Position numbers and translations under genes: made by a program
Virus record (IMG/VR): IMGVR_UViG_2671180885_000005
DNA from: a virus
Lineage: Duplodnaviria > Heunggongvirae > Uroviricota > Caudoviricetes
Strand: one strand, 5' to 3'
DNA: 46,052 nt
The notes under the pieces: generated by a model
Database searches by the model: none
What the model saw: only the letters and a program-made list of their open reading frames with translations
Told to the model about the DNA's origin: nothing
Part shown: in pieces, positions 7,248 to 44,380 of the stretch
Position numbering within the stretch: the first letter of the stretch is position 1
Layout of the letters: every line of letters starts with the position of its first letter

Positions 7248-7874
7248 TTAGAGTTCGTATTGAACTCCTTTGACTACACCAATGATAAGGCAATTACCAT
7301 TGATAGGGATGTTGGGATACCGAGGATTTAATGGCACTAAAAACTTTTGAGGGCCATCGATGACTAATTTTTTTACTGTAGCTTCGTTTGTTCCATCAAG
7401 TCGAGCGATGACTATTTTTCCATGACGAGGTTCTGCATCTGGATCTACAATCACTGTTGCGCCTTCTGGTATTGTTGGGAGGCCATTAGGGTTAGTCATG
7501 GAGTCACCTTTAACCTCTAATGCAAATGAGTTATCACCAATCTTTAATGATGTATCTACCCACTTGTCCACTTCACTAAACACTTCTGCTGCCCTGCACT
7601 CAGTAAACTGCCCAGCCTGAACCCACGATATTACAGGAACTCTGCGCATGTTTGTGACGAGTTTGCCTTCAAACTCAGCACCATAAAGAATGTAATCTAT
7701 TGACGTATTGAAGAACTTCGCTAATTTCGAAAGTGCCTCCCCACCAGGGGTATTGATGTCTTTCTCCCAGTACCCCACAGCAACGTCGCTTACTCCACAA
7801 AATTTACCCAATTCTTTCTGGGACGTTCTGGTAACTCTTCTCAGAGCTTTTATACGCTGACCAACCGTTTCCAT
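7248..7874 (-). CDS. cI: CI-like prophage repressor (HTH-XRE plus S24 LexA-like peptidase domain)
   Basis: N-terminal HTH (QKELGKFCGVSDVAVGYWEKD), C-terminal S24 autoprotease motif (GDSMTNPNG...K); divergent from a cro-like gene. Confidence 0.9.
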   Translation of the reverse strand: METVGQRIKALRRVTRTSQKELGKFCGVSDVAVGYWEKDINTPGGEALSKLAKFFNTSIDYILYGAEFEGKLVTNMRRVPVISWVQAGQFTECRAAEVFSEVDKWVDTSLKIGDNSFALEVKGDSMTNPNGLPTIPEGATVIVDPDAEPRHGKIVIARLDGTNEATVKKLVIDGPQKFLVPLNPRYPNIPINGNCLIIGVVKGVQYEL

Positions 7875-7971: not shown

Positions 7972-8172
7972 ATGACAACTGACGATATCGAAAGCTACTT
8001 CGGCAGTATTGAGAAAGTTGCTGCTTTTTTCGGCATAACAACTGAAGCCGTTTATCAGTGGCGAAACCGTCCGGGCCAGTTAATTCCAAAAGGACGTGCA
8101 GCAGAAGCTGCATATAGAACTTGCGGACGGTTGCCATTTAAACCTGAGCTTTATGAAAAATCTAATGGATAA
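7972..8172 (+). CDS. cro: Cro-like / YdaS-like HTH regulator
   Basis: 66-aa ORF divergent from cI, SD GGAGGG before the ATG; HTH segment FGITTEAVYQWRNR. Confidence 0.75.
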   Translation: MTTDDIESYFGSIEKVAAFFGITTEAVYQWRNRPGQLIPKGRAAEAAYRTCGRLPFKPELYEKSNG

Positions 8173-8761
8173 ATCGATTAACAGAAACCACAGAACGATG
8201 AGGCTAACCGTGGGTAAGCATCACTGGAAAGTAGAAAAACAGCCTGAGTGGTACGTGAAAGCTGTCAGAAAAACTATCGCAAAGTTGCCGGGTGGTTACG
8301 CTGAAGCAGCTGACTGGCTGGATGTAACAGAGAACGCATTATTTAACCGCCTTCGTGCCGATGGCGATCAGATTTTCCCGCTGGGATGGGCAATGATTTT
8401 GCAACGTGCTGGTGGAACTCACTTCATTGCTGACGCTGTGGCGCAGTCTGCAAATGGCGTCTTTGTGTCTCTTCCTGACGTCGAGGATGTGGACAACGCC
8501 GATATTAACCAGCGTCTGCTGGAAGTCATTGAACAGATCGGCAGTTATTCAAAACAGATTCGTTCAGCAATCGAAGACGGTGTAGTGGAACCGCATGAGA
8601 AGACAGCAATTAACGACGAGCTGTATCTCTCAATTTCGAAGCTGCATGAGCATGCAGCACTGGTCTACAAAATCTTTTGCATTTCAGAAAGTAATGACGC
8701 CCGCGAGTGTGCAGCTCCGGGCGCCGTGGCGTGTCGTGACTGTGGAGAAACTAACGCATGA
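8153..8761 (+). CDS. YdaT/CII-like regulatory protein (putative)
   Basis: Immediately follows cro in the cII position; resembles the YdaT family that follows ydaS in Rac-like prophages. Start ambiguous (8096 GTG, 8153 ATG or 8165 ATG). Confidence 0.5.
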
Positions 8762-9105: not shown

Positions 9106-10047
9106 ATGAGCACTAAATTAACCGGCTATGTATGGGATGGTTGCGCAGCGTCAGGCATGAAATTATCCAGCGTGGCAATTATGGCCCGCCTGGCTGATTT
9201 CAGTAATGACGAAGGTGTGTGCTGGCCATCAATTGAAACCATTGCCCGTCAGATTGGCGCGGGGATGAGTACCGTCAGGACGGCTATCGCACGGCTGGAA
9301 GCAGAAGGCTGGTTAACGCGTAAGGCGCGTCGCCAGGGTAACCGCAATGCGTCGAATGTTTATCAGCTTAACGTTGCGAAGCTTCAGGCAGCGGCATTTT
9401 CTCAACTGTCAGATTCTGACCCGTCAAAATCTGACGCATCAAAATCTGACCCGTCAAAATTTGATGCGTCGAAATCTGGCAAAAAAGCGGGTTTTCACCC
9501 GTCAGAATCTGGCGGGGATCCGTCAGTAAAATCAAAACATGATCCGTCAGATAAAAAACCTTCTCGTCCGGACGCTTCGCAACCGGACACGCAGACGGCT
9601 GAACAGTATTTTTTAACTCGCCATCCTGATGCGGTTGTATTCAGCCCTAAAAAGCGCCAGTGGGGGACGCAGGATGATTTGACCTGCGCACAGTGGCTCT
9701 GGAAAAAAATCATCGCCCTGTACGAGCAGGCCGCCGAATGTGACGGCGAGGTGGTTCGTCCCAAAGAACCGAACTGGACAGCCTGGGCAAACGAAATTCG
9801 CCTGATGTGTGTGCAGGATGGTCGTACTCACAAACAAATCTGCGAGATGTACAGCCGCGTCAGCCGCGATCCGTTCTGGTGCCGTAACGTGCTCAGCCCG
9901 TCGAAGCTGCGGGAAAAATGGGATGAGCTTTCCCTGCGCTTATCGCCGTCCGTAAGCACGTACACCGAAAAACGCGAAGACCCGTACTTCAAATCCAGTT
10001 ACGACAACGTGGACTACAGCCAGATCCCGGCAGGATTCAGGGGGTGA
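9106..10047 (+). CDS. phage replication initiation protein (O-like, N-terminal winged-helix)
   Basis: 313-aa ORF; N-terminal DNA-binding region (IETIARQIGAGMSTVRTAIARLEAEGWL); contains an internal array of ~15-bp iterons as in lambda O/ori. Confidence 0.8.
   Translation: MSTKLTGYVWDGCAASGMKLSSVAIMARLADFSNDEGVCWPSIETIARQIGAGMSTVRTAIARLEAEGWLTRKARRQGNRNASNVYQLNVAKLQAAAFSQLSDSDPSKSDASKSDPSKFDASKSGKKAGFHPSESGGDPSVKSKHDPSDKKPSRPDASQPDTQTAEQYFLTRHPDAVVFSPKKRQWGTQDDLTCAQWLWKKIIALYEQAAECDGEVVRPKEPNWTAWANEIRLMCVQDGRTHKQICEMYSRVSRDPFWCRNVLSPSKLREKWDELSLRLSPSVSTYTEKREDPYFKSSYDNVDYSQIPAGFRG
9406..9557 (+). repeat. iteron array (candidate origin of replication) inside the O-like gene
   Basis: Repeated ~15-bp units CCGTCAAAATCTGAC / GCATCAAAATCTGAC / CCGTCAAAATTTGAT / GCGTCGAAATCTGGC / CCGTCAGAATCTGGC / CCGTCAGTAAAATCA / CCGTCAGATAAAAAA visible in the sequence. 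Confidence 0.7.
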
Positions 10048-10049
10048 TC

Positions 10050-10538
10050 ATGAGTCTGTTAAATGACGTTCAGAAATTCATTGAAGCCCATCCGGGGTGT
10101 ACTTCCGGAGACATTGCGGATGCTTTTGCTGGTTACTCACGGCAGCGCGTTCTGCAGTCAGCAAGCAAGTTACGTCAGAGTGGGCGTGTGGCTCACCGTT
10201 GTGAAGGAGATACACGCAGACATTTCCCACGCCTGACTGAGAGAGCGCATGAGCCGGAACCACAACCAGTTCGTGAAACCAGACCTGTGCGCAATTTCTA
10301 TGTCGGCACTAACGATCCCCGGGTGATTTTGTGCCTGACCCGCCAGGCGGAAGAACTGGAGTCCAGGGGCTTATACCGTCGTGCTGCAACCTTGTGGATG
10401 GCGGCATTCCGTGAAAGCCACTCCCAGCCAGAACGAAACAATTTTCTGGCGCGTCGTGAGCGGTGCTTACGGAAAAGCAGCAAGCGCGCTGCATCGGGTG
10501 AAGAGTGGTATCTGTCAGGGAATTACGTGGGGGCTTAA
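10050..10538 (+). CDS. hypothetical protein (162 aa)
   Basis: ORF following the O-like gene, in the position of a helicase loader but without recognisable similarity; ATG at 10050 after a G-rich SD. Confidence 0.5.
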   Translation: MSLLNDVQKFIEAHPGCTSGDIADAFAGYSRQRVLQSASKLRQSGRVAHRCEGDTRRHFPRLTERAHEPEPQPVRETRPVRNFYVGTNDPRVILCLTRQAEELESRGLYRRAATLWMAAFRESHSQPERNNFLARRERCLRKSSKRAASGEEWYLSGNYVGA

Positions 10539-10864
10539 TGACGACGTTAACTCAATGCCAGCAGCAGGTGCTGGATATGCTGATTTCTTACCAGAAAGAA
10601 CGTGGCTTCCCGCCAACCAATCAGGAGGTGGCTACCATGCTGGGATACCGTTCAGTGAATGCAGCGGTGGAGCATCTTCGCGCACTGGAGAAAAAAGGCG
10701 TCATCACGATAAAGCGTGGCGTGGCACGGGGGATAACGCTTCATACCGCGGTGAAGGACGACGACAGCGAGGCGGTCGGGATTATCCGCTCACTGCTTGC
10801 CGGTGAGGAAAACGCCAGGCTGCGTGCAGCCCACTGGTTACATGAGAGGGGCCTGAAAGTATGA
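10538..10864 (+). CDS. LexA N-terminal DNA-binding-domain protein (no peptidase domain)
   Basis: MTTLTQCQQQVLDMLISYQKERGFPPTNQEVATMLGYRSVNAAVEHLRALEKKGVITIKRGVARGITL parallels the LexA N-terminal winged helix (LTARQQEV...MPPTRAEIA...[23 protein letters not shown]); only 108 aa, so the S24 domain is absent. Confidence 0.65.
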   Translation: MTTLTQCQQQVLDMLISYQKERGFPPTNQEVATMLGYRSVNAAVEHLRALEKKGVITIKRGVARGITLHTAVKDDDSEAVGIIRSLLAGEENARLRAAHWLHERGLKV

Positions 10865-38570: not shown

Positions 38571-39029
38571 TCAGTCGATAATACGCAGAATGGCGTGAGC
38601 CTCTGGATGTTGCATGGCATACTCCCGCAGGCGGTAATAGTGTGCGGTCATCGCGTCACATTCTGTACGGCAGGCATGGTGGCTATACGCAATCAGGCAG
38701 ACAGCAATACCTGCTGCTTCTGCACTCATTTGGGCATCGTTACCGTTCAGGCAGTTAAACAGACGCCATGTCTCATCGTTGTCAGGCTCGGGGGACATAA
38801 ATGCGCCGCCATTGCTGAGGGTGTAGAACGACCAGATACCACCGCTGTAGCCCTCACAGAAGCGGTCCATCCAGGCGAAGATATGCGGCTCCAGGAGTAG
38901 CCACTGCGGGATAGCGCCAAAGTACTGTGGCCAGAAATCGATACGCTGTTCATCGGGGACCGGCGTGACGGTCAGTTCAAATTCGGGTTGGTTAGCGGGT
39001 GCGAGGTCGTGCTGCGTCTGTGTTGTCAT
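38571..39029 (-). CDS. antirestriction protein (YafX/YfjX-like)
   Basis: ATG at 39029 after GGAGA; conserved position and sequence of the island antirestriction family. Confidence 0.75.
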   Translation of the reverse strand: MTTQTQHDLAPANQPEFELTVTPVPDEQRIDFWPQYFGAIPQWLLLEPHIFAWMDRFCEGYSGGIWSFYTLSNGGAFMSPEPDNDETWRLFNCLNGNDAQMSAEAAGIAVCLIAYSHHACRTECDAMTAHYYRLREYAMQHPEAHAILRIID

Positions 39030-39126
39030 GGGTATGTCTCCGTCAATAAAAACGCCAGCGGCGATGGCTGGCGTATGGGGATATAAAGTGTGTTCGGGGA
39101 GGTGAATGCGGGTAAATGCTTCGCGA

Positions 39127-39366
39127 TCAGCGGGTGGCCGTGTCTGTACGGATGCCTGAGGTGCGGATATAGCGGTTAAGACCTTCACCGGCATCCGGCT
39201 CAAAGTTCCATGCCCGCCAGACCATCCGGCCTTCAGTATCACGAACCACCAGACGGAAGTGACTGCCCTGGTCGTCTTCGAGTGTGATATTGCTGTACGT
39301 GGTAGTGACCGCTTGCGCTTGTCTCCGGGTGAAAGGCCCCGGTGGCAGCAACACGGATTGGGTCAT
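39127..39366 (-). CDS. DUF905 protein (YkfF-like, 79 aa)
   Basis: ATG at 39366 after AGGAG; [43 protein letters not shown]... matches my recollection of YkfF. Confidence 0.75.
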
Positions 39367-39442
39367 TTTCGGGCTCCTGATAAAAGAAAACCCCGGCAGC
39401 CTGCTAGCTGTCGGGGTGGATTTGCTGGGGAAGATACTACTA

Positions 39443-39910
39443 TCAGTCGTTGCTGCAGTCTCCGAGAGTGGACAGAACTTTCTCAGCGTTCTTCCGGTCC
39501 GCAGTGAAGGTCCCTGCTTTGTGGTCATTGACGTAGACGTCGAACTGCCCGGCCTCAGAGATATTGCTGATGAAGTCAAACCAGGCGTTATCGCCGTTAC
39601 GCCAGCCCAGGCTGGACGGAATAATGTACTGCTGGTGATCCATCACTACGGTGATAGTAGTGTCGTCATCGTGCGAACTGACCATCTTGTCATCGGCAAG
39701 GGTAAGAAAGACTGAATGCTGATAGAAACCATTCTGGTCCGGGTTCCCTGTGCAGTTGATGGTAAACGTCTTTCCGCTGGCTTCGGTCACGCTGTATTCC
39801 GTATTGCCCTGACCGTAACCCTGCTGCCAGAACCCCGGGATAGCAGAGGCATTAAAGCTCGCGAGCAGTACACCCGCCAGCATAAACCGACTTAGTGAAA
39901 GTATTGTCAT
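39443..39910 (-). CDS. secreted protein of unknown function (YkfB-like)
   Basis: 155-aa ORF with N-terminal signal peptide ([23 protein letters not shown]). Confidence 0.7.
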
Positions 39911-39938
39911 TCTTGTCTCCTTTGTCGTTGTTTTATTC

Positions 39939-40376
39939 CTAGTTCTCAGGGTTTGAGGGTATCAGCAGTCGCCCCATCAGTTTGCCGTCATGGGCGTACT
40001 CAAAGTATTTTTCTTTGGTATACGGGTCCGTCACCTCCTGGTATTCCAGTTTGATGTTATCGGCAATACACAGCGCATTCATCAGTGGCTGGACGGTTTT
40101 TTCCTGCATATCCACGAGGTAGTAGTAACTGCCATCCTCGCAGCCATCGGGCGACTGGCGGGTACGTAAAACCTGCAAGGTGGGACCGGATAAGTAGTCA
40201 ACCTGTGACCATTCTTCGCTGACATCATCCTGGTGGCTGACCACATCACTGAAACGCGGTGGGGTAAGGTCCTTAAATTTACTGATGGCCTTCAGGTCAT
40301 CACTTCTGTCATCGCATGCGATGAGAAACAGAGTGGTGGCAACCAGCGCCAGCAGAGGCAGTGTTTTACGTTTCAT
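39939..40376 (-). CDS. lipoprotein (YafY-like)
   Basis: N-terminal lipobox MKRKTLPLLALVATTLFLIAC. Confidence 0.7.
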   Translation of the reverse strand: MKRKTLPLLALVATTLFLIACDDRSDDLKAISKFKDLTPPRFSDVVSHQDDVSEEWSQVDYLSGPTLQVLRTRQSPDGCEDGSYYYLVDMQEKTVQPLMNALCIADNIKLEYQEVTDPYTKEKYFEYAHDGKLMGRLLIPSNPEN

Positions 40377-40612
40377 TATTTTTTTCCTGAAATCAGACGA
40401 ACCACTTTGGCAAAGACATAAATGCCCACGAAAATACCCACCGGCACGCCGACGAACGGTGTCAGCGCGACACTGGCAGCACCGGCTGCGCCACCTCCCG
40501 TCAGCAGTGCGGCAACAGTGGCAAGGGTCAGGGCCGCGAGACTGTCGGACACCCCGGTTTTGTTCAGAATGATGACGATGACAACAATGGCGATAATGGC
40601 AATAACGGGCAT
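40376..40612 (-). CDS. small membrane protein (78 aa; YkfL/YpjK-like)
   Basis: ATG at 40612 after GGAGG; highly hydrophobic. Confidence 0.55.
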   Translation of the reverse strand: MPVIAIIAIVVIVIILNKTGVSDSLAALTLATVAALLTGGGAAGAASVALTPFVGVPVGIFVGIYVFAKVVRLISGKK

Positions 40613-40652
40613 AGGGCTCCTCCCTGTTGCCGGGTTGATAACAACGCTTACG

Positions 40653-41354
40653 CTATTCTGGTGGGCTGTCGGCCGGAACAAACGTAAGCAGTGACTGCTG
40701 GATAAAGCGAAAATGGGGTAAGGACTGAATAAAGCCCGGGTCTTCAACAAGACGACACAGACTGTCGTTACGCCGGAAAGTCTCCTGCAGGGGCTGAACC
40801 AGATGGATTTCATCCAGGGAGAATACGGCGATATGTCCGTCGTGCTCTGCCACCAGATACCAGGCCTGCTGGTGGATAAGTAACCGGCAGGGAGCCAGCC
40901 GCTCACAGCGTCGCCCCTCGGCAATCAGAGTCACCCGCCTGCGCCCGGTAATGGCCTGAATCAGTCGCCAGAAAGACAATGCGCCTGATGGCGAAGGAGA
41001 CGGACTGGCGGGTGCGATTACGCAGGGAGACTCATCGCACATCAGCAGTGCGTTTACCAGACGACGGTCAAAGCCAGGGAAAAGACCGGCCATCCCGCTG
41101 CGGTGGGCAAAGATAAGCACGTCGGGCACCATCTGCGTCTCACTGCCCGCAGTGCGTAAGCGGCAATATCCGGACTGATACTCCAGGTCCAGATACATCA
41201 GCCGCTCACGAAAATCACGCCGCAGCGTGCGCACCGACACACCAAACTCAGCGGCAAGCTTACGCACACTCAGCGTTTCCCCTGCCACCAGACGGCTGAT
41301 TATCAGTGACAGCCTGACAGCCAGCCGGTCATGGCGGCGTTCTGCCTGTGTCAT
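40653..41354 (-). CDS. HTH plus WYL-domain transcriptional regulator (YfjR-like)
   Basis: N-terminal HTH ([21 protein letters not shown]) and a C-terminal WYL-like region ([15 protein letters not shown]). Confidence 0.65.
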
Positions 41355-41570
41355 GAGACGTTCTCCGTGAAAGTTAACTGACTGAAAATGATGTGATTAC
41401 TTTAAAGAGGGGGTCGGACAGGGTATGGACACCACAGAAACTATTTTTCATTTCTGCAAAAGCCAGAGGCAGCGGGGGTTACAGGCCTTCCCTCGGTGAG
41501 TGAGGACCGTCAGCACGGTGCGATGCGGACAGGTGGTGTCCGATATTAACAAAGCAGCAACATTAAACGG

Positions 41571-42407
41571 TCACTGCAGTTGCGTGAGCAGGGCTTCCGC
41601 CATCACCCACAGTGCCCGGTTAAGTTTCACGTCCCCGTCGATACCGCGAACGGCACGGGTATGTGACCGTCCTCCTTTGGCATTACGGCCACTGAGCCCG
41701 CCCTTAATCAGGTTCTCCTGAATACGCTGGTACGTGGTCCACAGGTCATTGCTCTCATCCTGCCAGCGGCGAGGGGAGAGGATCTGCGATTCAGTCACCG
41801 GCTGGTGGTCTTCACCAAAGCGGTATGTGAGGGCGGCTTTTGCCAGTGCCTGCTGTGCCGGGGGTGGCAACAGCAACGACTGCATGGCATCCCGTTTCTC
41901 CTCCACCCGGTCAAAAATCCCCAGCACCTCATACGCGCCTTCAATCACCTGACTTACCACGTCCCCCTTGTGTGGCACCCGCACCTCGCCAAACGACTCA
42001 CCGCAGACGAGCCCGTTCTGACAAACCGCACGAAATAAACCCGGCAACATCTGGTACGAACTGGTGCCATCATGGGAGTTGAGCAGGATAATTTCTGGTA
42101 CCTGTTTACCGGTAATCTGCCCCTCCCGACGAAGGCGTAGCATGTGTTTTGTGTGCTCGCGTCGACCCGGGTCGCGTACCCGGGTCTGACAGGCAAAGAA
42201 CGGCTGGAAGCCTTCGCGCTGCAGGCTGTCCAGCAGGGATATGGTGGGTATATAGGTATAACGCTCACTACGGGATGCGTGTTTGTCCTCACTGAATACA
42301 CTGGGCACCACGCGAAACAGCTCTTCGCGGGTTAACGGGCGGTCGCGACGGATAAGATTTGCTGCGCCAAAGCGCGAAGCCAGACGGGTCATAAGCAGAC
42401 TCCTCAT
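41571..42407 (-). CDS. DUF932-family protein (YafZ/YfjQ-like)
   Basis: 278-aa ORF in the conserved position after the GTPase. Confidence 0.75.
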   Translation of the reverse strand: MRSLLMTRLASRFGAANLIRRDRPLTREELFRVVPSVFSEDKHASRSERYTYIPTISLLDSLQREGFQPFFACQTRVRDPGRREHTKHMLRLRREGQITGKQVPEIILLNSHDGTSSYQMLPGLFRAVCQNGLVCGESFGEVRVPHKGDVVSQVIEGAYEVLGIFDRVEEKRDAMQSLLLPPPAQQALAKAALTYRFGEDHQPVTESQILSPRRWQDESNDLWTTYQRIQENLIKGGLSGRNAKGGRSHTRAVRGIDGDVKLNRALWVMAEALLTQLQ

Positions 42408-42483
42408 AACGGGAAAACAAATAAAAGGGATCCCCGTCGCATCGGCGACAGGGGCAGGGAAGTAACAGGGATGGGTTAAATAC

Positions 42484-43347
42484 TCAGAAGAAGAAATCCC
42501 AGACGGCGCGGGCCACTGACACCACCGTGGTGCGCACGGCCTGAATGACAGCCCGTACCGGGGCGGGTATCAGGGGAAAGGCACTGATGCTATCGAGTAC
42601 GGCCCCGACGGTTTCACCAAAATCGCTACGAGCCTGTTCCCGGACTACCGTCGTGCGAAAGGAAGACTGGAGTTGCGACACCACCGGGCTGGTGGCCTCA
42701 CGTGGCAGGCACTTAATCATTCGCTCGGCCATCACCCGCAGTCCCCACTGAAGACGGACCGACACGGCACACACCGGATGTACGGGCTGGAACAGCTCAT
42801 GCAGCAGACAGATTTTACGGCTGATATTCTGCTTCTGCGCCGTGGACAACGGTCCCCCACCGCTGGTGGGTTCGGCCTTATCCGACTGGCTGATAACAAA
42901 CAGCACCTTATGCCGGTATACCTCTCCAATCACCTGATGATAAAAATGTTCATCCACCGCCAGCGCCCGGTCATCGGCCTTAATCAGCCACAGTACCAGG
43001 TCGAGGCGAGGAAGCTGTTCGCGGTACAGCGCAGCATACTCGGTATCGCGAGCACCACTTTCGCCCACGCCGGGCAGGTCCACCAGCGTCATATAGCGGT
43101 CGCCGACTTGCAGGCGAAAGCGCAGTGGCTCACGGGTACATGCAGCCACATCGCTGACCGGTGATATATCTCCGGCAAACAGGGCATTGCACAGACTGCT
43201 CTTCCCAACACCGGTTTTACCCATAATGCCGATCACTGGCTCGTAGCGGGTTAACTGATTTATCTGCTGCAATATACGTTCAGACACCCACTGTGGCAGA
43301 CCAGCGAGCGATTGCTGAAACGGCTTCAATCCTTCAGAATTGTTCAT
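42484..43347 (-). CDS. GTPase (YkfA/YfjP family)
   Basis: ATG at 43347 after GAGGAG; P-loop GKTGVGKSS and DLPG motif. Confidence 0.8.
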   Translation of the reverse strand: MNNSEGLKPFQQSLAGLPQWVSERILQQINQLTRYEPVIGIMGKTGVGKSSLCNALFAGDISPVSDVAACTREPLRFRLQVGDRYMTLVDLPGVGESGARDTEYAALYREQLPRLDLVLWLIKADDRALAVDEHFYHQVIGEVYRHKVLFVISQSDKAEPTSGGGPLSTAQKQNISRKICLLHELFQPVHPVCAVSVRLQWGLRVMAERMIKCLPREATSPVVSQLQSSFRTTVVREQARSDFGETVGAVLDSISAFPLIPAPVRAVIQAVRTTVVSVARAVWDFFF

Positions 43348-43453
43348 TACTACTCCTCTGAAAAATAATACAAAAACGGCAGAATCGTGAGATTCCACCG
43401 TTAATCTGGTATGTTCAAAGGGATGATATATATCTGAAAATTATTAACTTGAT

Positions 43454-44380
43454 CTACTTTTTGTCTTTTTTACGTGATGAAACAGCCTGCTGCCAAGCAT
43501 GCTTCATTTTCTGAATAAAGAAATATTTTTCTTCAACTCCAGTGTCCCAACTATCCATGCATGCAATGATCATCTGTATTCTCATTGCAGGGTTATATGG
43601 TTTTAAATAAAAGGGGATCATATTTTTATTTCTCAGATACTCCCAGCAATAGATAGCTTGCTTTTCATCTTTTTTATCTAGCCAGTCATAATCAGTAAGA
43701 AATGTATTATATTGCTCTAGCCATTTATCATGCAACTTACGAAAATAGGAAATTTTCTGACTTAAACTTACAGGAGCTAAATCAATAAACCTCATCAAAG
43801 TACAAATGCGTTCTTGTTCGGATGTTGTATTCGGGCTGTAGTTGTCGGGATCTGCGCCAGATGTTAAATAAAATCTACGCGAGTATTTTTCAGGTATATC
43901 TCTATTTTTTTCTTTATTGCTAGGGGAGATTCCCACCTGCATTTCGGCTTGTACTTCATCAAGTGAGAAATTTTTAATTTCATCAATGTTTATAAATTCA
44001 AAAAAGGATGCAGGAGTTGAGTTCGGGTTGTAAATATTATCTTGTGCAAAGATATTCACGCTCGAGGAGGTTTCAGGACTGATTCTGTTGTTATATATAT
44101 ACATTAAGGCAAACCACGATCCTCTATCAGAACCTTTGAAGCAATCGAACTTCTCTTTGTCAATGATTTTGTAATGGAACTGTTTTTTCAAGTAAGTACG
44201 CGCACTTTGTATTGCTTCATTATTGAATAGGAATTTAGTGTTCAATATATGATTAATGAGTTTTTGAAATTCCTCAGGCGTGTCGAAATTACTCGCCTGC
44301 TTAATGTAATCTTCGTTGTAATACAGACTCAGAACGTAAAGGGAAAAGAACTCCTCTCTCACTTCGTCATACCTAAGCAT
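43454..44380 (-). CDS. hypothetical AT-rich protein (308 aa) heading the GTPase operon
   Basis: Long ORF, visibly AT-rich; no family recognised; occupies the slot where CP4-57 carries rnlAB. Confidence 0.55.
   Translation of the reverse strand: MLRYDEVREEFFSLYVLSLYYNEDYIKQASNFDTPEEFQKLINHILNTKFLFNNEAIQSARTYLKKQFHYKIIDKEKFDCFKGSDRGSWFALMYIYNNRISPETSSSVNIFAQDNIYNPNSTPASFFEFINIDEIKNFSLDEVQAEMQVGISPSNKEKNRDIPEKYSRRFYLTSGADPDNYSPNTTSEQERICTLMRFIDLAPVSLSQKISYFRKLHDKWLEQYNTFLTDYDWLDKKDEKQAIYCWEYLRNKNMIPFYLKPYNPAMRIQMIIACMDSWDTGVEEKYFFIQKMKHAWQQAVSSRKKDKK

What the first reader, a model, noticed from the sequence alone, without database searches (positions are those of the whole stretch)
9406..9557. 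Iteron array embedded in the O-like replication gene, with no recognisable helicase loader or helicase downstream
At least seven ~15-bp direct repeats lie inside the coding sequence, encoding the repetitive DPSKSDASKSDPSKFD segment. The array is followed by an A-rich stretch, like lambda ori. The genes that follow are a 162-aa unknown and a LexA-NTD protein rather than P/DnaC- or DnaB-like proteins, so helicase recruitment may use a non-canonical partner.
Basis: partly seen in the sequence, partly recalled or inferred. Interest (0 to 1): 0.4.

Follow-up and report, generated by a model that had tools for sequence, protein, structure and literature searches.

The report
Loader-less phage origin, DnaT-like initiator tail
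This is a very common lambda-type phage replication origin inside its initiator gene; the phage has no helicase-loader gene, apparently because the initiator ends in a short peptide copied from the host protein DnaT that probably recruits the host's own DnaB-DnaC helicase complex.

Summary
The repeats are real. Five 13-bp dyads (GTCARAWTCTGRC) lie in strict 15-bp register at 9408-9480, with a sixth at 9501-9513 and two GATCCGTCAG part-repeats in the gene's most A+T-rich stretch. They encode the disordered linker of a 313-aa initiator (9106-10047).

Across 63 distinct relatives the motif follows the N-terminal winged-helix domain. Its third-codon positions diverge 2-2.8 times less than in flanking coding DNA, so it is selected as DNA: an origin of lambda type.

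The C-terminal domain is 40% identical to lambda O's P-binding domain, yet no P, DnaC or DnaB gene exists in the prophage. The 162-aa neighbour is a PerC/YfdN winged-helix regulator, not a loader.

The key feature is the initiator's last residues, SQIPAGFRG, which match the conserved C-terminus of host DnaT (SQIPPGFRG). In relatives, tail type predicts the partner:
- Lambda-type or WEN tails are followed by P in 11 of 11 loci.
- DnaT-type tails are followed by P in 0 of 63 loci and 0 of 211 motif-defined proteins, and by a DnaC homologue in 57 of 211.
- Of phage dnaC-like genes, 74 of 79 directly follow a gene ending in IPxGFxG, as in the host dnaT-dnaC operon.

Inferred, not shown: the tail recruits DnaB-DnaC.

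The parts
9106..10047 (+). Initiator gene (313 aa; PHROG 391 'replication initiation O-like'; RefSeq name 'helix-turn-helix domain-containing protein'; a C-terminal fragment of the same family is YfdO in K-12 CPS-53)
9106..9399 (+). N-terminal winged-helix DNA-binding domain, residues 1-98 (Pfam HTH_36; MarR-like predicted fold)
   Evidence: E=4e-11; pLDDT 75-88
9408..9480 (.). Five tandem iterons: 13-bp dyads GTCARAWTCTGRC at 9408, 9423, 9438, 9453 and 9468, 15 bp centre to centre. They encode the repeated D(P/A)SKS units of the disordered linker.
9501..9513 (.). Distal iteron (GTCAGAATCTGGC), 33 bp after the last tandem copy. A distal copy after a 33-63 bp gap is seen in most of the relatives with a similar N-terminal domain.
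9517..9562 (.). Two GATCCGTCAG(T/A)AAA part-repeats (9517-9531, 9541-9555; each starts with a Dam GATC site) inside the most A+T-rich 40 nt of the gene (9523-9562). This is the candidate DNA-unwinding region. GGGGATCCGTCAGT is nearly invariant in 68 distinct relatives.
9589..9945 (+). C-terminal domain, residues 162-280, homologous to the C-terminal (P-interacting) domain of lambda O (40% identity)
   Evidence: (H53, E=7e-17), (pLDDT 70-93)
9946..10044 (+). Disordered C-terminal tail, residues 281-313. The last nine residues SQIPAGFRG (10018-10044) match the C-terminus of E. coli DnaT, SQIPPGFRG. Proposed adaptor peptide for DnaB-DnaC.
10050..10538 (+). Neighbour, not part of the mechanism: PerC-family / YfdN protein (winged helix plus three-helix PerC domain)
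10538..10864 (+). Neighbour: 108-aa protein with a LexA N-terminal DNA-binding domain only

Best explanation
The array is the replication origin of an SfII/SfIV/e14/CPS-53-type lambdoid prophage, built on the lambda plan. Dimers of the initiator's N-terminal winged-helix domain bind the 13-bp dyad iterons, which lie in the part of its own gene that encodes the disordered linker. The adjacent A+T-rich GATC-containing segment is the likely place where the DNA melts. Lambda O hands over to P-DnaB through its C-terminus. This initiator instead carries, after a lambda-O-type C-terminal domain, a disordered tail ending in (I/V)PxGFRG. The same peptide ends the host primosomal protein DnaT, whose gene is followed by dnaC, and the Rac prophage protein YdaU, whose gene is followed by the DnaC homologue ydaV. 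I infer that the tail docks the host DnaB6-DnaC6 complex, most likely through DnaC, so the host loader places DnaB on the melted origin and no phage loader is needed. Shown here: the repeats, their selection as DNA, their co-variation with the N-terminal domain, the domain homologies, the absence of loader genes, the tail identity, and the tail-partner association. Inferred: iteron binding, the melting site, and the physical contact between tail and DnaB-DnaC.
For: Origin. The dyads are clustered. The same motif occurs 3-9 times in 15-bp register at nt ~297-430 in every initiator whose N-terminal domain is at least ~64-72% identical, whatever its C-terminal domain or tail, and is absent at 45% identity or less, where other repeats take its place. 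Third-codon pairwise divergence is 0.24 in the tandem iterons and 0.18 in the distal iteron plus GATCCGTCAG, against 0.49 (N-terminal domain) and 0.46 (C-terminal domain) in the same 63 genes. Copy number varies in whole 15-bp / 5-aa units. The array encodes a predicted disordered linker. Isolated phages carry this module. Helicase recruitment. The C-terminal domain is 40% identical to that of lambda O, but no P, DnaC or DnaB gene is present. The tail is SQIPAGFRG against DnaT's SQIPPGFRG; relatives match DnaT at 14 of 20 residues. The tail motif is invariant in 20 enterobacterial DnaT orthologues and is kept in orthologues of only 32-49% identity. Relatives with C-terminal domains 66-78% identical have unrelated tails, and tail type predicts the next gene. 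WEN or lambda-type tails are followed by lambda-P in 11 of 11 loci; GFR tails in 0 of 63 (Fisher p=2e-13). In a sample defined only by the motif, 211 tail-bearing proteins (11 N-terminal and 5 C-terminal domain clusters) had P downstream in 0, DnaB in 0, and a DnaC homologue starting 0-50 nt after the stop in 57. In the reverse test, 74 of 79 phage dnaC-like genes are preceded by a gene ending in (I/V)PxGFxG. K-12 YdaU ends in ...VNTVSLPDSAIPPGFRG and is followed by YdaV, which is 50% identical to DnaC. The literature states that how DnaT recruits DnaB/DnaC is unknown and that residues 154-179 are structurally undefined (PMC13377028; PMC4132743).
Against: The 2026 preprimosome paper favours the DnaT N-terminal domain as the recruiter (PMC13377028). 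Removing DnaT residues 154-179 mainly weakened ssDNA binding about 2.7-fold (PMC4132743), so the tail might act on DNA. The DNA coding for the tail directly abuts the next gene, so tail and partner can be co-inherited through linkage alone, and the loci are not phylogenetically independent. A second loader-less class (W..IW tails, 18 loci) shows that lacking a loader is not unique to this tail. Iteron binding and the melting site are untested, and the A+T-rich stretch is weaker than lambda's.
Confidence: 0.55

Rival explanations
1. The DnaT-like tail recruits a different DnaT partner (PriA, PriB or SSB) or binds ssDNA. The phage would then assemble a restart-type primosome at the melted origin, and DnaB-DnaC would arrive only indirectly.
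For: DnaT works within the PriA-PriB-DnaT preprimosome (PMC13377028). Deleting DnaT residues 154-179 lowers ssDNA affinity (PMC4132743). One relative (L160) combines IPEGF with an SSB-like acidic ...DDDFI end.
Against: In the cryo-EM structures the PriA contact is made by the folded DnaT C-terminal domain and the PriB contact by the acidic linker, not by the tail (PMC13377028). This initiator lacks both of those elements. The tight, near-exclusive pairing of the tail with dnaC-like genes is not predicted by a PriA, PriB or SSB partner.
Confidence: 0.2
2. The initiator only opens the origin. DnaB-DnaC loads on the exposed ssDNA without any specific contact, or with help from DnaA or transcription, and the tail has an unrelated role such as regulation or turnover.
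For: W..IW-tail initiators also lack any loader gene. The gene lies in the rightward early operon, so transcription crosses the origin.
Against: This does not explain why the tail is nearly invariant in a disordered region, why it is shared with DnaT and YdaU, or why it never occurs with P while lambda or WEN tails always do.
Confidence: 0.12
3. One reading: the downstream 162-aa ORF, or the LexA-NTD protein, is a non-canonical helicase adaptor or loader.
For: The PerC-like gene directly follows the initiator here, in SfV, and in many relatives.
Against: It belongs to the PerC/YfdN family and has a winged-helix plus three-helix predicted fold that matches only transcription regulators. It is absent after 36 of 63 and 113 of 211 initiators with the same tail. 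The host DnaT carries the same tail with no such protein present.
Confidence: 0.05
4. The repeats are only a low-complexity, slippage-prone linker-coding region with no role as DNA, and the origin lies elsewhere.
For: They encode a disordered repetitive peptide whose length varies between relatives.
Against: Third-codon positions are 2-2.8 times more conserved than in flanking coding DNA. The two serine codons of each unit are fixed as TCA and TCT, as the dyad requires. The motif follows the N-terminal domain across genera. The position is the same as in lambda and P22.
Confidence: 0.05

Closest known systems
Phage lambda O protein / ori-lambda / P
   Same: The origin iterons lie in the linker-coding part of the initiator gene and are followed by an A+T-rich stretch. 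The N-terminal domain binds DNA. The C-terminal domain is homologous (40% identity). The position in the rightward early operon after cro and cII is the same.
   Different: The N-terminal domain matches Pfam HTH_36, not Phage_rep_O. The iterons are 13-bp dyads in a 15-bp register rather than ~18-bp units about 20-24 bp apart. The lambda tail ...TDWIYGVDL is replaced by a DnaT-like tail, and there is no P gene.
E. coli DnaT-DnaC (replication-restart primosome)
   Same: The extreme C-terminal peptide is the same: 8 of 9 residues here and up to 14 of 20 in relatives. As in dnaT-dnaC, many tail-bearing phage genes are directly followed by a dnaC homologue.
   Different: No DnaT N-terminal domain, acidic linker or PF17948 C-terminal domain was detected. 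Recruitment would be directed by a DNA sequence (iterons) rather than a DNA structure (PriA). The 'primosomal protein I' label in phage records is a misnomer for this protein.
Rac prophage YdaU-YdaV (E. coli K-12) and similar initiator-plus-DnaC phage modules
   Same: The tail is the same (YdaU ends ...LPDSAIPPGFRG), and the presumed logic of initiator tail plus DnaC-type loader is the same.
   Different: Those modules encode their own DnaC homologue and have other N-terminal domains (DUF1376 and others). The window's phage has none and would rely on host DnaC.
Shigella phage SfV orf39 (and SfII, SfIV, mEp460 replication proteins)
   Same: The genomic context is the same (PerC-like, LexA-NTD, RusA). 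SfII and SfIV carry essentially the same gene. SfV orf39 matches the last 23 residues at 22 positions.
   Different: The core of SfV orf39, between the N-terminal domain and the tail, is unrelated, and its repeats differ (GGTAGTGCAGGAG, three copies).
DopC-DopE (Brezellec et al. 2017, PMC5509034)
   Same: Mosaic initiator-like proteins combine an HTH_36 N-terminus with DnaT-derived C-terminal elements. That paper already noted the relationship between O, DnaT and DopC at the domain level.
   Different: DopC carries the DnaT C-terminal domain, has no iterons, and is paired with a P-like loader. That paper did not analyse the terminal peptide or its link to the type of loader.
Phage P22 gp18-gp12
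   Same: The origin lies inside an O-like initiator gene.
   Different: P22 brings its own DnaB-type helicase. Its gp18 tail is unrelated, and no such helicase is present here. The positive control detected gp12 at E=3e-66.

Membership tests
Lambda-type O initiator with origin inside the gene | Direct or dyad repeats (iterons) inside the initiator gene, in the inter-domain linker region | tested here: met
Lambda-type O initiator with origin inside the gene | C-terminal domain homologous to that of lambda O | tested here: met
   tblastn finds 40% identity over residues 173-277, E=7e-17; alignment
Lambda-type O initiator with origin inside the gene | N-terminal domain of Pfam family Phage_rep_O (PF04492) | tested here: not met
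   The match is HTH_36 (PF13730), with no PF04492 hit at E<=0.1. Lambda O and Pm34 gp21 do hit PF04492. Brezellec 2017 reports that HHpred links lambda O to HTH_36, so distant homology is possible.
Lambda-type O initiator with origin inside the gene | Partner P (PF06992) gene immediately downstream | tested here: not met
   (0 of 63 for this tail class)
Lambda-type O initiator with origin inside the gene | A+T-rich unwinding region next to the iterons | tested here: inconclusive
   70% A+T over 40 nt, the richest in the gene, against 80% in lambda
Lambda-type O initiator with origin inside the gene | The initiator binds the iterons and the segment supports replication | not testable with these tools
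   Only indirect support: co-variation with the N-terminal domain and conservation of synonymous sites
DnaT (primosomal protein I) | DnaT DNA-binding C-terminal domain (PF17948) | tested here: not met
   No Pfam hit. BLASTP and phmmer similarity is limited to the last 9-20 residues.
DnaT (primosomal protein I) | DnaT N-terminal oligomerisation domain and acidic PriB-binding linker | tested here: not met
   (no alignment outside the tail)
DnaT (primosomal protein I) | Conserved C-terminal (I/V)PxGF(R/K)G peptide | tested here: met
Helicase loader or helicase (lambda P, DnaC/IstB AAA+, DnaB) encoded in the module | Sequence-family or fold match in the downstream or other prophage ORFs | tested here: not met
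   Pfam, PHROGs and NCBIfam; tblastn with P, DnaC and DnaB references, with a P22 positive control; predicted fold of the 162-aa ORF matches only winged-helix regulators
PerC family (the 162-aa downstream ORF) | Pfam PF06069 above the gathering score | tested here: met
   36.1 bits against 22.6; RefSeq names it 'yfdN: PerC family transcriptional regulator'

The most novel reading that the evidence does not exclude
The C-terminal (I/V)PxGFRG peptide is the missing DnaB-DnaC recruitment element of DnaT. Phage initiators carry interchangeable C-terminal adaptor peptides that decide which helicase-loading route they use: lambda or WEN tails for P, and the DnaT-type tail for DnaC, whether host or phage-encoded. 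The host dnaT-dnaC operon would then look like a domesticated phage initiator-loader module.
Probability: 0.4. Interest if true: 0.8.

Novelty: new variant of a known kind. Interest (0 to 1): 0.6.

Why it matters
The module is ordinary in how often it occurs. It is found in 2,732 of 5,426 complete E. coli genomes and in the Shigella serotype-converting and Stx2c phages, yet RefSeq names the initiator only 'helix-turn-helix domain-containing protein', and phage records mislabel it 'primosomal protein I'.

Two things give it wider interest:
- It offers a concrete explanation for how a whole class of lambdoid phages replicates without any loader gene.
- The tail-partner pattern points to one short peptide as the candidate link between DnaT and DnaB-DnaC. 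The 2014 and 2026 structural papers both describe that step of replication restart as unknown (PMC4132743, PMC13377028).

The idea can be tested directly in E. coli K-12, which itself holds three examples of the tail: DnaT, YdaU and the YfdO fragment.

Tried and rejected
- Sequence search of the PDB with the whole protein, the C-terminal half and the last 34 residues found only MarR-type hits to the N-terminal domain, or nothing.
- Foldseek of the AlphaFold2 model against the PDB matched only the winged-helix domain. No solved structure resembles the C-terminal domain.
- I considered that the C-terminal domain might be a DnaT C-terminal domain, as the 'primosomal protein' label suggests. I rejected this because the similarity is confined to the tail, although other phage initiators do carry a true DnaT C-terminal domain.
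- I considered the PerC-like ORF as loader or adaptor and rejected it.
- The Rfam scan gave one sub-threshold miRNA hit on the palindromic repeats, which is an artefact.
- The promoter and terminator scan gave nothing beyond chance that bears on the origin. A weak minus-strand hairpin plus T-run lies at 9501-9488.
- Literature searches for 'initiator-solo', for DnaT together with phage O proteins, and for YdaU/YdaV found no analysis of the tail. From memory, Weigel & Seitz (FEMS Microbiol Rev 2006) catalogued phage replication modules, possibly including initiator-only ones. I could not access that paper, so earlier mention that these phages lack a loader cannot be excluded.
- A first single-linkage clustering of the tail-bearing proteins collapsed into one cluster because of shared domains. 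I redid it separately for each domain.

Full report
**Setting.** The window is a prophage with host flanks. Positions 1-1254 encode an aldehyde dehydrogenase, followed by an integrase, early-left genes, a cI-like repressor (7248-7874, minus strand), cro (7972-8172) and a cII-like gene (8096-8761). Next come two small ORFs, the initiator (9106-10047), a PerC-like ORF, a LexA-NTD ORF, RusA, a KilA-N protein, DUF968/HNH and a Q-like gene, then lysis and structural genes. The 7.9-11.3 kb segment is 97-98% identical to isolated phages (Escherichia phages vB_EcoM-689R6 and Kati, Shigella phages SfII and SfIV, mEp460) and about 95% identical to Stx2c phages. The initiator plus its neighbour occurs in 2,732 of 5,426 complete E. 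coli genomes. This is therefore a very common and functional replication module.

**The observation.** Tandem Repeats Finder reports a 15-bp period at 9415-9478. Each unit holds a 13-bp dyad. Six copies of GTCARAWTCTGRC (up to 2 mismatches) lie at 9408, 9423, 9438, 9453, 9468 and 9501, with only five loose matches elsewhere in 46 kb. Two part-repeats, GATCCGTCAG(T/A)AAA, follow at 9517 and 9541, inside the most A+T-rich 40 nt of the gene (70%, against 80% in lambda). The array encodes residues 101-151, which AlphaFold2 predicts as a disordered linker between a winged-helix domain (1-98) and a folded C-terminal domain (162-280). The reported observation is confirmed, with the copy count slightly overstated.

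**Is it a functional DNA element?** I collected 80 loci from one genome per species and others from viral contigs.
- In every initiator whose N-terminal domain is at least ~64-72% identical to this one, the same dyad occurs 3-9 times at nt ~297-430 in strict 15-bp register, usually with a distal copy, whatever the C-terminal domain or tail.
- At 45% identity or less it is absent and other repeats sit at the same place: TTGACCCC seven times in Edwardsiella, AGATTCACCAGG five times in L161, GGTAGTGCAGGAG three times in SfV, and ATCCCTCAAA in lambda.
- Among 63 distinct genes, third-codon pairwise divergence is 0.49 in the N-terminal domain and 0.46 in the C-terminal domain. It is only 0.24 in the tandem iterons and 0.18 in the distal iteron plus GATCCGTCAG, while first and second positions are similar throughout.
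- Copy number changes in whole 15-bp / 5-aa units.

These are the signatures expected of iterons read by the adjacent DNA-binding domain. Binding itself remains inferred.

**What the protein is.** The N-terminus matches Pfam HTH_36, and the whole protein matches PHROG 391, 'replication initiation O-like'. Residues 173-277 are 40% identical to the C-terminal domain of lambda O (E=7e-17), the domain that classical lambda genetics links to P (established knowledge, not tested here). By its C-terminal domain and its origin architecture it belongs to the O family, with a different or only distantly related N-terminal family.

**No loader.** The next ORF (10050-10538) matches PerC (36.1 bits against a cut-off of 22.6), PHROG 'transcriptional activator' and NCBIfam ANR, and RefSeq calls it yfdN. 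Its model is a winged helix plus a three-helix domain that matches only transcription regulators. The following ORF has a LexA DNA-binding domain only. No P, DnaC, DnaB or primase family appears in the other non-structural ORFs scanned or in the annotation of phage Kati. A P22 positive control shows that a DnaB-type gene would have been detected.

**The tail.**
- The protein ends in SQIPAGFRG, and E. coli DnaT ends in SQIPPGFRG.
- In 28 family members this tail is nearly invariant although it is predicted disordered. Some relatives match DnaT at 14 of 20 residues, and the similarity stops there.
- In DnaT itself the tail residues are invariant in 20 genera. Orthologues of only 32-49% identity still end in (I/V)PxGF(R/K).
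- Published work leaves DnaT 154-179 structurally undefined and says the route from DnaT to DnaB-DnaC is unknown (PMC4132743, PMC13377028).

**Tails are swappable and predict the partner.** Relatives whose C-terminal domains are 66-78% identical to this one carry unrelated tails: a lambda type (...TDWIYGIE) or a 'WEN' type (...EAWENTL, as in Proteus phage Pm34 gp21). SfV orf39 has an unrelated core but matches the last 23 residues at 22 positions.

| Tail class (94 classified loci) | Loci | P next | DnaC-like next | DnaB |
|---|---|---|---|---|
| WEN | 9 | 9 | 0 | 0 |
| Lambda type | 2 | 2 | 0 | 0 |
| GFR (DnaT-like) | 63 | 0 | 1 | 0 |
| W..IW | 18 | 0 | 0 | 0 |

- The remaining two loci fall in an 'other' class. 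One of them (L160) is followed by a DnaC-like gene.
- The association between tail type and P gives Fisher p=2e-13.
- I then scanned viral contigs for any gene ending in PD..IP.GFRG-stop or DYS..P.GFRG-stop. This gave 211 proteins in 11 N-terminal and 5 C-terminal domain clusters. P was downstream in 0, DnaB in 0, and a DnaC homologue beginning 0-50 nt after the stop in 57.
- In the reverse direction, 74 of 79 phage dnaC-like genes are directly preceded by a gene ending in (I/V)PxGFxG. Two of the 79 loci are the host dnaT-dnaC operon itself.
- In K-12, Rac YdaU ends in ...VNTVSLPDSAIPPGFRG and is followed by YdaV, which is 50% identical to DnaC. The CPS-53 fragment YfdO is the C-terminal part of this very family and is followed by YfdN.

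**Interpretation.** The simplest reading is that the C-terminal peptide is an adaptor that sets the helicase-loading route, and that the DnaT-type peptide works with DnaC-type loaders. Phages without their own dnaC, like this one, would use the host DnaB-DnaC complex.

**Caveats.**
- No physical interaction was tested.
- The tail-coding DNA abuts the next gene, so linkage contributes to the association.
- The loci are not phylogenetically independent.
- The cryo-EM authors favour the DnaT N-terminal domain as the recruiter.
- The tail contributes modestly to ssDNA binding.
- A second loader-less class (W..IW tails) exists.
- The PerC-like ORF is not required by the pattern, since it is absent after more than half of the tail-bearing initiators.

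**Prior knowledge and novelty.** The origin-in-O architecture is classical. Brezellec et al. 2017 (PMC5509034) had noted the domain mosaicism among O, DopC and DnaT. I found no description of the terminal peptide or of its link to the type of loader, but subscription literature could not be searched. I rate this a new variant of a known kind. The array itself is ordinary, and the interest lies in the testable link to the DnaT-DnaC step.

Noticed in passing
L003 1545-1562 (lambda J02459 ~39161-39178) compared with window 9500-9514: The palindrome just right of lambda's A+T-rich origin region, TCGTCAGAGAATTCTGGC (coding ..SSENSG..), shares its half-sites with this family's distal iteron, CCGTCAGAATCTGGC (coding PSESGG). 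It may be a homologous relic.
   Followed up: no
L101, L103, L106, L108-L110, L124, L139, L144, L151, L152, L156, L162-L164, L168, L170: Initiators with the same N-terminal domain and iterons, but a C-terminus 50-70 aa longer that ends in a W..IW motif (for example ...AWAGIWQQAAEQAA). They also have no P, DnaC or DnaB gene within ~3.5 kb. This is a second loader-less class whose partner is unknown.
   Followed up: partly
L160 (Serratia MAG), initiator C-terminus: The tail ...DIPEGFNQNLPATNQGGTDDDFI combines the IPxGF motif with an SSB-like acidic DDDF end, and is followed by a DnaC-like gene.
   Followed up: no
L415, L467, L471, L473 (viral contigs): A minority of genes upstream of phage dnaC-like genes end in ...QFI(S/P)EDF instead of IPxGFxG. 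This may be an alternative adaptor peptide.
   Followed up: no
window 9517-9520 and 9541-9544: Two Dam GATC sites sit inside the nearly invariant GATCCGTCAG repeats next to the iterons. Many relatives, including SfV and Kati, carry a Dam-type methyltransferase gene one or two genes downstream; this window does not.
   Followed up: partly
(P0277-P0390): At least 48 proteins of 250-540 aa from varied initiator families carry a true DnaT C-terminal domain at their C-terminus, with GFR, WEN, lambda-type or acidic D(W/R) tails. This fits a phage origin, or repeated phage capture, of the DnaT C-terminal module.
   Followed up: partly
window 9488-9501, minus strand: A hairpin (CGGGTGAAAACCCG) followed by a T-run lies in the spacer between the fifth and sixth iterons. 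It resembles a terminator for leftward transcription. Its score is weak and the spacer sequence is not conserved in relatives.
   Followed up: partly
window 38571-44380: Antirestriction, DUF932, YfjS/YafY lipoprotein, WYL/DeoR regulator and GTPase genes lie here. This looks like a CP4-like island next to, and not part of, the prophage. Positions 1-1254 are a host aldehyde-dehydrogenase gene.
   Followed up: no
public annotation: The same gene is variously named 'DNA replication protein O', 'primosomal protein (I)', 'GntR family regulator' and 'helix-turn-helix domain-containing protein'. A 2025 machine-learning study listed a prophage 'dnaT: primosomal protein 1' as a feature, which may be a prophage initiator of this kind mislabelled as dnaT.
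   Followed up: no
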